From a virus (lineage: Duplodnaviria; Heunggongvirae; Uroviricota; Caudoviricetes): DNA of 31,164 nucleotides. The stretch's first letter is position 1. Each line of letters starts with the position of its first letter. The notes beneath the pieces were generated by a model. It had not been told where the DNA came from. It searched no databases and worked only from the letters and a program-made list of their open reading frames with translations. The position numbers and the translations under genes were made by a program. The DNA lies in the IMG/VR virus record IMGVR_UViG_2713896902_000001. One strand, written 5' to 3'. Shown piece by piece: positions 30,794 to 31,164 of the stretch.

Positions 30794-31035
30794 GTTTGGG
30801 GGTGCTTTTGGGGGTATCTGCTAAGATGTAATGAAAAAATGTCATTATATATCAATGTGTTTTTGTTGTTTGTTTTGTTCCTATTATCGCACCATTTCAA
30901 ACTCTTCCCAAGTCTACTTAAGTCGATTAAACCCGCGTATACTGTGGTTCATAGCCCGTTTCTTATCTTCCATTATCAACCTAAATCAAGTACCCGTAGG
31001 GAACATTCTGTGTTCGGTTTAGGGAGATGCCCCCA
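30794..31035. promoter_or_regulatory. second copy of the integrase-upstream control region
   Basis: Shares blocks with 11560-11751: TTCCTATTATCG(G)CACCATT(T)CAAAC..TCCCAAGTCTACT(A/T)AAGTC, GGGGGT(A/G)CTT(A/T)TGGGGGTAT, TGTTCGGTTTAG(T/G)GGAG. Confidence 0.45.
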
Positions 31036-31164
31036 ATGAAGCGAAGAAAAAAATGGCTGACGGGGAGATTGGAATATAATCCGGCACTCGATCTCACCAG
31101 TGCCATGCAATGGTATGAATCAACTCACTATCCTTTTCTTACAGTTGATGAACTTGTACGGTAA
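31036..31164 (+). pseudogene. integrase remnant (42 codons) homologous to an internal segment of the P4-type integrase
   Basis: MKRRKKWLTGRLEYNPALDLTSAMQWYESTHYPFLTVDELVR aligns by eye with int residues GRAEYNPAPDLTSAMQGHESNHYPFLTTKEL; stop TAA at the last three bases of the window. Confidence 0.55.

What the first reader, a model, noticed from the sequence alone, without database searches (positions are those of the whole stretch)
30794..31164. Duplicated integrase-upstream region plus a 42-codon integrase remnant ending exactly at the window edge
Blocks of the 11560-11751 control region recur at 30794-31035, followed by a short ORF whose product aligns with an internal segment of the P4-type integrase and then stops. 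This looks like the scar of a second, degenerate island copy (tandem array at one att site) or a recombination product. A PerC-like activator gene lies immediately upstream.
Basis: seen in the sequence. Interest (0 to 1): 0.5.

Follow-up and report, generated by a model that had tools for sequence, protein, structure and literature searches.

The report
Dead integrase relic at thrW
The last 370 bases of the window are the junction between an intact mobile element and the decayed integrase gene of an older island, all stacked at one threonine-tRNA gene of Escherichia albertii; this is an ordinary, already described kind of insertion hot spot.

Summary
The interpretation "scar of a second island in a tandem array at one att site" is essentially right, with corrections.

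- **Source.** The window matches E. albertii contig BBVM01000001.1. The layout there is proA, thrW (tRNA-Thr CGT, 606 nt left of the window), element A, a 17-nt thrW 3'-end core (11570-11586), element B, a core copy lacking one G (30879-30894), then the integrase relic.
- **Finding region.** 30794-30878 is B's right arm and 30879-30894 is the core. 30895-31035 is the old integrase upstream region and 31036-31164 is the relic ORF.
- **Relic.** It keeps the ancestral ATG and a 29-nt out-of-frame piece of the arm domain. It also keeps 84 nt covering codons 185-212 of the reference integrase. Two internal deletions separate these pieces and everything 3' is lost, including the catalytic domain.
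- **Not a copy of B's integrase.** It is 69% identical to B's integrase but 86% identical to another thrW integrase lineage (E. coli MLI107).
- **Fixed in the species.** In other E. albertii strains the same relic abuts thrW directly, or follows A alone, or B alone.
- **Window edge.** The window was cut at called-gene boundaries, so the coincidence with the edge is an artefact.
- **Right of the relic.** Low-GC DNA carrying tccP4, nleH-like and nleG genes follows.
- **Literature.** PMC11878020 already reports "traces of integration" at this locus.

The parts
1..11569 (+). Element A, whose left 606 nt lie outside the window. It has a lambda-E-type capsid gene (6155-7183), a Dit-like gene (9353-10066), a resolvase (609-1148, minus strand) and a DUF6538-type tyrosine integrase (10147-11481, minus strand). 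It is the thrW-proximal member of the array.
   Evidence: Precomputed Pfam hits on the source contig L030, and the thrW tRNA 606 nt left of window position 1. Pfam scan of the integrase.
11570..11586 (+). Copy of the thrW 3'-end core, TCCTATTATCGGCACCA, at the junction between elements A and B.
   Evidence: Identical to the last 17 nt of E. coli thrW.
11587..11751 (+). Left arm of element B and the region upstream of its integrase. It contains the tandem motif TGGGGGTACTTATGGGGGTAT at 11700-11720.
   Evidence: 99.4% identical to the thrW-integrase spacer of E. coli O26 RM10386. Motif.
11752..12966 (+). Intact P4-type integrase of element B (404 aa).
   Evidence: PF13356, PF22022 and PF00589 are all matched.
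30249..30536 (+). PerC-family regulator gene, the last gene of element B.
   Evidence: PF06069, E 2.6e-33. Annotated as PerC family in E. coli.
30537..30878 (+). Right arm of element B. It contains the second copy of the GGGGG tandem motif at 30797-30817.
   Evidence: Homologous to the right end of element B in E. coli O26 RM10386 (L003) and E. coli MDR_56 (L001); megablast homology stops at the core or shortly beyond it. Motif.
30879..30894 (+). thrW core copy with a 1-nt deletion (TCCTATTATC-GCACCA), at the junction between element B and the relic.
   Evidence: The same one-G-deleted core sits at B's right end in L001, L003, L009 and L011.
30895..31035 (+). Relic of the upstream region of the old island's integrase (its former left att arm). 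It carries 10-nt and 12-nt deletions, and one GGGGG unit is lost.
   Evidence: 88.7% identical to the thrW-integrase spacer of E. coli MLI107, against 75.4% to the window's own spacer. In strains with an empty site it directly follows the thrW tRNA.
31036..31064 (+). Ancestral integrase start codon fused to 29 nt of the arm-domain coding region. Relative to E. coli MLI107 a 205-nt deletion lies at an ATGAAGCT microhomology, and this piece is read out of frame.
   Evidence: 27 of 29 nt match MLI107 positions 445-473.
31065..31071 (+). 7-nt filler (GAGATTG) that replaces 318 nt of the ancestral gene (second deletion).
31072..31155 (+). 84-nt in-frame piece covering codons 185-212 of the reference integrase (end of the central domain and start of the catalytic domain).
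   Evidence: 72 of 84 nt match E. coli MLI107; 58 of 84 match the window's own integrase. tblastn E 5e-12.
31156..31164 (+). Sequence beyond the 3' breakpoint that is not derived from the integrase. It ends in TAA, which is CAA in the E. albertii type strain.
   Evidence: No further integrase homology in the next 10 kb.

Best explanation
The region is the distal junction of a three-member tandem array of integrative elements at the thrW tRNA-Thr(CGT) gene of Escherichia albertii.

- **How the array formed (inferred).** Each element integrated by site-specific recombination with the 3' end of thrW. Each integration left a 16-17-nt copy of that 3' end at its distal junction and pushed older residents away from the tRNA.
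- **What the finding region contains (shown).** 30794-30894 is the right att arm and core of the intact, probably still mobile P4-like element B. B runs from its integrase (11752-12966) to the PerC-family gene (30249-30536). 30895-31164 is what remains of the left att arm and integrase gene of an older island.
- **Why the relic is dead (shown).** Relative to the closest intact integrase tested (E. coli MLI107) the gene has lost 205 nt and 318 nt internally and everything 3' of codon 212, including the catalytic domain. The 42-codon ORF is therefore a non-functional pseudogene fragment.
- **What the relic implies (inferred).** The old island can no longer excise, so its cargo is fixed in the chromosome. 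Incoming elements A and B keep using the same tRNA site.
- **The GGGGG tandem motifs (inferred, not tested).** They flank the core in B's two arms and are most likely arm-type binding sites for B's integrase.
For: 1. The source contig shows proA, thrW, A, core, B, core lacking one G, then the relic. It is identical to the window at 17182 of 17183 positions on the left and 10070 of 10070 on the right.
2. Comparison of empty and occupied sites. In L005 and L012 the tRNA-Thr (9784-9859) is followed after 141 nt by the relic ATG, the same spacing as from the core copy to the ATG in the window. In L006, L007, L008 and L010 element A alone precedes the relic. In L009 and L011 element B alone precedes it. 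All eight loci are 270/270 identical to the window after the core.
3. Homology between an empty-site strain and the source strain starts within the core and runs at 99.8% over 10.3 kb.
4. Relic anatomy against an intact thrW integrase: three pieces, two deletions and a 3' truncation.
5. No integrase homology in the following 10 kb, and no Pfam hit for the 42-aa product.
6. The stop codon is polymorphic: TAA here, CAA in the type strain and in the 50-aa cluster members.
7. The same relic occurs in the E. albertii type strain (263/270) and on 124 contigs. No place in any of 5426 complete E. coli genomes covers 80% or more of the query.
8. [quoted passage not shown]
Against: - No distal direct repeat (attR) of the old island was found within 10 kb, so its right boundary and original extent are unknown.
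- No intact ancestor of the relic linked to the same cargo was found. The adjacent 133-aa ORF is an E. albertii orphan.
- The order in which A and B integrated cannot be deduced.
- Mobility of A and B, and the arm-site role of the GGGGG motif, are inferred and not shown.
Confidence: 0.9

Rival explanations
1. The relic is a degenerate second copy of the same island (a tandem duplication of element B or of its integrase region).
For: The upstream regions and an internal integrase segment align significantly with the window's own integrase region.
Against: - The relic is clearly closer to a different thrW integrase lineage: 85.7% against 69% in the coding piece, and 88.7% against 75.4% upstream.
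- The relic is present in strains that lack B entirely (L005, L006, L007, L008, L010, L012).
Confidence: 0.03
2. The truncated ORF is an artefact of a contig or window end, or of misassembly at a repeat, and the real gene continues as an intact integrase.
For: The ORF stops exactly at the last base of the window.
Against: - The window begins and ends at called-gene boundaries.
- The same sequence lies inside two complete chromosomes (CP025676.1 and CP043262.1) and several long contigs. It is followed by DNA with no integrase homology.
Confidence: 0.01
3. The relic region keeps a function. It might be a regulatory small protein or RNA, or a retained integrase promoter driving the downstream 133-aa ORF or tccP4. 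It might also be a preferred secondary att site that helps capture new elements.
For: - The 270 nt are identical in eight loci with different neighbours.
- Elements A and B are always found immediately left of it.
Against: - Those loci were retrieved by exact identity of the ORF product, so their identity is partly by construction. The type strain differs at 7 of 270 positions, including the stop codon.
- Part of the ORF is read out of frame relative to the ancestor.
- There is no Pfam or Rfam match, and the promoter-like and terminator-like scans were at chance level.
- tccP4 is on the opposite strand.
- Insertion next to the relic is explained by the tRNA itself being the target.
Confidence: 0.05

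Closest known systems
Tandem arrays of genomic islands and prophages at tRNA genes, with decayed P4-type integrases. Examples are E. coli thrW (CP4-6 and the vat island, both recalled from memory) and, shown here, E. coli MDR_56 where element B is followed by a truncated 'Arm DNA-binding' integrase pseudogene, MarR and vat.
   Same: - Short direct repeats of the tRNA 3' end lie at each junction.
- The integrase sits next to the tRNA-proximal end of each element.
- The older, distal member has a degraded integrase and fixed virulence cargo.
   Different: - The relic here comes from a different integrase lineage and has its own deletion pattern.
- It is specific to E. albertii: no place in any of 5426 complete E. 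coli genomes covers 80% or more of the query.
- No distal repeat of the old island survives.
The E. albertii thrW / tccP4 region described in PMC11878020 (Microbiol Spectr 2025).
   Same: - Same locus, between proAB and asrABC.
- The paper reports variable prophages and integrative elements and 'traces of their integration' in thrW.
- The EspF-repeat gene next to the relic falls in the same 90%-identity cluster as TccP4, AUS64398.1.
   Different: - The passages I read do not describe this integrase relic.
- The paper states that tccP4 does not appear to lie on the mobile elements.
- It also states that the acquisition event could not be identified.
Satellite phage P4 integrase and attP (recalled from memory).
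   Same: - Element B's integrase has the Arm-DNA-bind_3, Phage_int_M and catalytic domain architecture.
- It targets a tRNA 3' end.
- It has repeated motifs in both att arms.
   Different: The relic retains none of the functional domains. The arm-site role of the GGGGG motif is inferred only.

Membership tests
P4-type tyrosine integrase (functional member) | N-terminal arm DNA-binding domain (PF13356) | tested here: not met
   No Pfam hit for the 42-aa product. Only 29 nt of this region survive, and they are read out of frame.
P4-type tyrosine integrase (functional member) | C-terminal catalytic domain (PF00589) carrying the active-site residues | tested here: not met
   Homology ends at codon 212 of the reference integrase. 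tblastn finds nothing further in the next 10 kb.
P4-type tyrosine integrase (derived pseudogene) | Significant nucleotide or protein homology to an intact integrase, at the canonical position next to the tRNA 3' end | tested here: met
   72 of 84 nt and 27 of 29 nt match the E. coli MLI107 thrW integrase, and the upstream region is 88.7% identical. The relic ATG lies 141 nt after thrW in empty-site strains.
tRNA-associated integrative-element array | Direct repeats of the tRNA 3' end at the element junctions | tested here: met
   Cores at 11570-11586 and 30879-30894, plus thrW itself 606 nt left of the window.
tRNA-associated integrative-element array | Empty and singly occupied versions of the same site in related strains | tested here: met
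   thrW|relic, A|relic and B|relic configurations were all found.
Genomic island (the old element that owned the relic) | Distal att repeat marking the far boundary | tested here: not met
   No core-like repeat with up to 4 substitutions, and no E. coli-type native thrW downstream flank, within 10 kb.
Genomic island (the old element that owned the relic) | Atypical base composition and accessory cargo | tested here: met
   GC is 31-50% across the 9.4 kb right of the relic (31-45% outside the asr genes), against 50% for the flanking core genes. The cargo is tccP4, an OspG/NleH-like kinase and two NleG genes.
PerC family regulator (the upstream gene) | Match to PF06069 above the gathering score | tested here: met
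   114.6 bits against a cutoff of 22.6.

The most novel reading that the evidence does not exclude
The relic may be the vestige of the integrative element that originally delivered tccP4 into the E. albertii ancestor at thrW. The neighbouring low-GC nleH-like and nleG effector genes may have come with it. If so, it identifies the acquisition event that PMC11878020 says could not be identified.

For this reading:
- In empty-site strains the layout is thrW, relic, 133-aa orphan ORF, then tccP4, with the relic ending about 650 nt from tccP4.
- The whole thrW-to-rclC interval is low in GC.
- The relic was not found in complete E. coli genomes, and the paper reports the same for tccP4.

Against it:
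- No distal att repeat survives.
- No intact relative carrying the same cargo was found.
Probability: 0.35. Interest if true: 0.3.

Novelty: already known. Interest (0 to 1): 0.15.

Why it matters
- **Annotation.** The 42-codon ORF should be marked as an integrase pseudogene fragment. One public record calls it 'polymerase basic protein 2'.
- **Element boundaries.** 30879-30894 should be recognised as the right end of a probably mobile P4-like element that carries a PerC-family regulator, in an organism that has the LEE pathogenicity island according to PMC11878020.
- **E. albertii biology.** The relic gives a fixed landmark for reading the highly variable thrW / tccP4 region. It also gives a plausible but unproven route for how tccP4 arrived.
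- **Overall.** Otherwise this is a textbook tRNA hot spot.

Tried and rejected
- **tRNA in the window.** ARAGORN finds none. The tRNA lies 606 nt outside the left edge.
- **The scar in E. coli.** No place in any of 5426 complete genomes covers 80% or more of the query.
- **Homologues of the adjacent 133-aa ORF, to trace an intact ancestor island.** Only E. albertii itself was found.
- **A distal att repeat or an E. coli-type native flank right of the relic.** None found.
- **A closer intact integrase.** The E. coli C3728 integrase next to rclC is more distant than E. coli MLI107.
- **Rfam families and promoter or terminator patterns in 30400-31164.** No Rfam match there; the promoter-like and terminator-like scans were at chance level.
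- **Look-up of the 614-aa protein of element A.** Not on record. The capsid protein gave the source contig instead.
- **IS1 idea.** I first considered that the window might end at an IS1 terminus (GGTAA). I dropped this once the extended sequence showed unrelated unique DNA.

Full report
**Observation**

- Repeat finding gives 11581-11633 against 30889-30941 (53 nt, 77%) and 11700-11725 against 30797-30822 (26 nt, 88%).
- The motif TGGGGGTRCTTWTGGGGGTAT occurs only at 11700 and 30797 in the window, against 0.01 expected by chance.
- The ORF runs from 31036 to 31164, which is 42 codons plus TAA.
- Residues 10-42 of the ORF product align with residues 180-212 of P4-type integrases at 76% identity (E about 1e-11).
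- The gene at 30249-30536 is a PerC-family gene.

**The window edge**

- Window position 1 is the ATG of a called 52-aa gene, and position 31164 ends the called 42-aa gene.
- The window was therefore cut at gene boundaries, and the coincidence with the edge carries no biological meaning.

**What the blocks are**

I aligned the window end, the window's own integrase region and the thrW-integrase region of E. coli MLI107.
- Both window regions start with the last 17 nt of tRNA-Thr thrW, TCCTATTATCGGCACCA.
- The copy at 11570-11586 is intact. The copy at 30879-30894 lacks one G.
- Left of the second core, E. coli genomes are homologous to the window (about 97% by megablast in the best hits). That homology ends at the core or shortly beyond it.
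- 30537-30894 is therefore the right arm and core of the element that begins with the integrase at 11752. I call this element B.
- The GGGGG motif lies in both arms of B, so it would flank the core in B's circular form. I infer arm-type integrase sites, but this was not tested.

**The source and the array**

- An exact look-up of the 42-aa product returned eight loci.
- L009 (contig BBVM01000001.1) is identical to the window over 9800 + 270 nt.
- L030, from the same contig, matches window 1-17183 at all but one position. It places tRNA-Thr(CGT) 606 nt left of the window, just after proA.
- The layout is therefore proA, thrW, element A, core, element B, core lacking one G, relic.
- In E. coli O26 RM10386 the order is thrW, B, A, then chromosome. 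The two elements are thus independent integrants of the same site.

**The relic is a fixed resident**

- In L005 and L012 the relic follows thrW directly. Its ATG lies 141 nt after the tRNA, the same spacing as from the core copy to the ATG in the window.
- In L006, L007, L008 and L010 only A precedes the relic. In L009 and L011 only B precedes it.
- An empty-site strain and the source strain are 99.8% identical over 10.3 kb, starting within the core.
- The E. albertii type strain carries the same scar (263/270). It has CAA where the window has TAA.
- Public records name these proteins as E. albertii.
- One record annotates the 42-aa ORF as 'polymerase basic protein 2', which is spurious.
- No place in any complete E. 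coli genome covers 80% or more of the relic query.

**Anatomy of the relic**

I compared it with the MLI107 integrase.
- **Piece 1 (30879-31042):** the core, the upstream region and ATGAAGC. Upstream identity is 88.7%, with 10-nt and 12-nt deletions. The 12-nt deletion removes one GGGGG unit.
- **Deletion 1:** 205 nt, between two copies of ATGAAGCT.
- **Piece 2 (31036-31064):** 27 of 29 nt match, but the piece is read out of frame.
- **Deletion 2:** 318 nt replaced by GAGATTG. The net loss across both deletions is 516 nt, which by chance restores the frame.
- **Piece 3 (31072-31155):** 72 of 84 nt match MLI107, but only 58 of 84 match the window's own integrase.
- **3' end:** beyond 31155 there is no integrase homology for 10 kb, so the catalytic domain is gone.

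The relic is therefore a dead fragment of a third integrase lineage and not a copy of B's integrase.

**Right of the relic (outside the window)**

- The gene order is a 133-aa orphan ORF, an EspF-repeat gene, a methyltransferase and asrCBA-like genes. These are followed by an OspG/NleH-like kinase and two NleG genes, and then rclC and rclB.
- GC in this interval is 31-50% (31-45% outside the asr genes), against 50% in the flanking core genes.
- The EspF-repeat gene falls in the same 90%-identity cluster as AUS64398.1, which is TccP4.
- No distal att repeat was found.

**Literature**

PMC11878020 reports the following about this locus.
- tccP4 lies near thrW, between proAB and asrABC.
- tccP4 does not appear to be on those elements.
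- The acquisition event could not be identified.

**Verdict**

- This is an ordinary, essentially known situation: a tRNA integration hot spot with stacked elements and a decayed integrase.
- The only mildly new idea is that the relic marks the element that brought tccP4. I give this a probability of about 0.35.

Noticed in passing
window 21636-21690 and 30165-30219 (extended, imperfect, to about 21756 and 30084): A 55-nt perfect inverted repeat rich in GTTGGTTCA iterons brackets the 8.5-kb module of element B. The module runs from just after the TOPRIM-DUF927 primase gene to just before the PerC-family gene, and it encodes P22-like ejection proteins (gp7, gp20 and gp16 homologues). The layout recalls the P4 ori and crr iteron clusters (from memory), or an invertible or cassette-like module.
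   Followed up: no
window 13027-13094, 16212-16289, 16352-16439: Three Rfam matches above the gathering score lie inside element B: int-alpA RNA just after the integrase, then isrK, then C4 antisense RNA upstream of the ash-family gene.
   Followed up: no
window 1-11569; L003 26548-38931: Element A is about 12 kb and widespread; its first gene is listed in 30101 index blocks. It has its own capsid gene, a Dit-like gene, a resolvase and a DUF6538-type integrase. It uses the same thrW core as B. It sits on the tRNA side of B in this window but on the far side of B in E. coli O26. It resembles a capsid-forming satellite, which I did not test.
   Followed up: partly
L005 9784-9859; L030 3165-3240: E. 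albertii thrW carries a compensatory T-stem change (GGAGG...CCTCT) relative to E. coli (GTAGG...CCTAT). The core copies at element junctions carry either the E. coli-type A (window, L006, L007) or the E. albertii-type C (L008, L010). This could be used to map crossover points or the history of the elements.
   Followed up: partly
window 31115-31164, continuing as L009 10080-10481: A called 133-aa ORF starts inside the relic in another frame. It has no Pfam hit and no homologue outside E. albertii. It may be a truncated gene of the old island.
   Followed up: partly
L004 500-547: In the E. albertii type strain the relic is preceded by a 46-nt fragment of the thrW 3' end and by unrelated DNA. 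This indicates yet another element there, one with a longer att identity.
   Followed up: no
L001 6680-7185: In E. coli MDR_56, element B is likewise followed by the one-G-deleted core. After that come a different truncated integrase (arm domain only), MarR and the vat autotransporter gene. B next to a dead integrase is therefore a recurrent pattern at thrW.
   Followed up: partly
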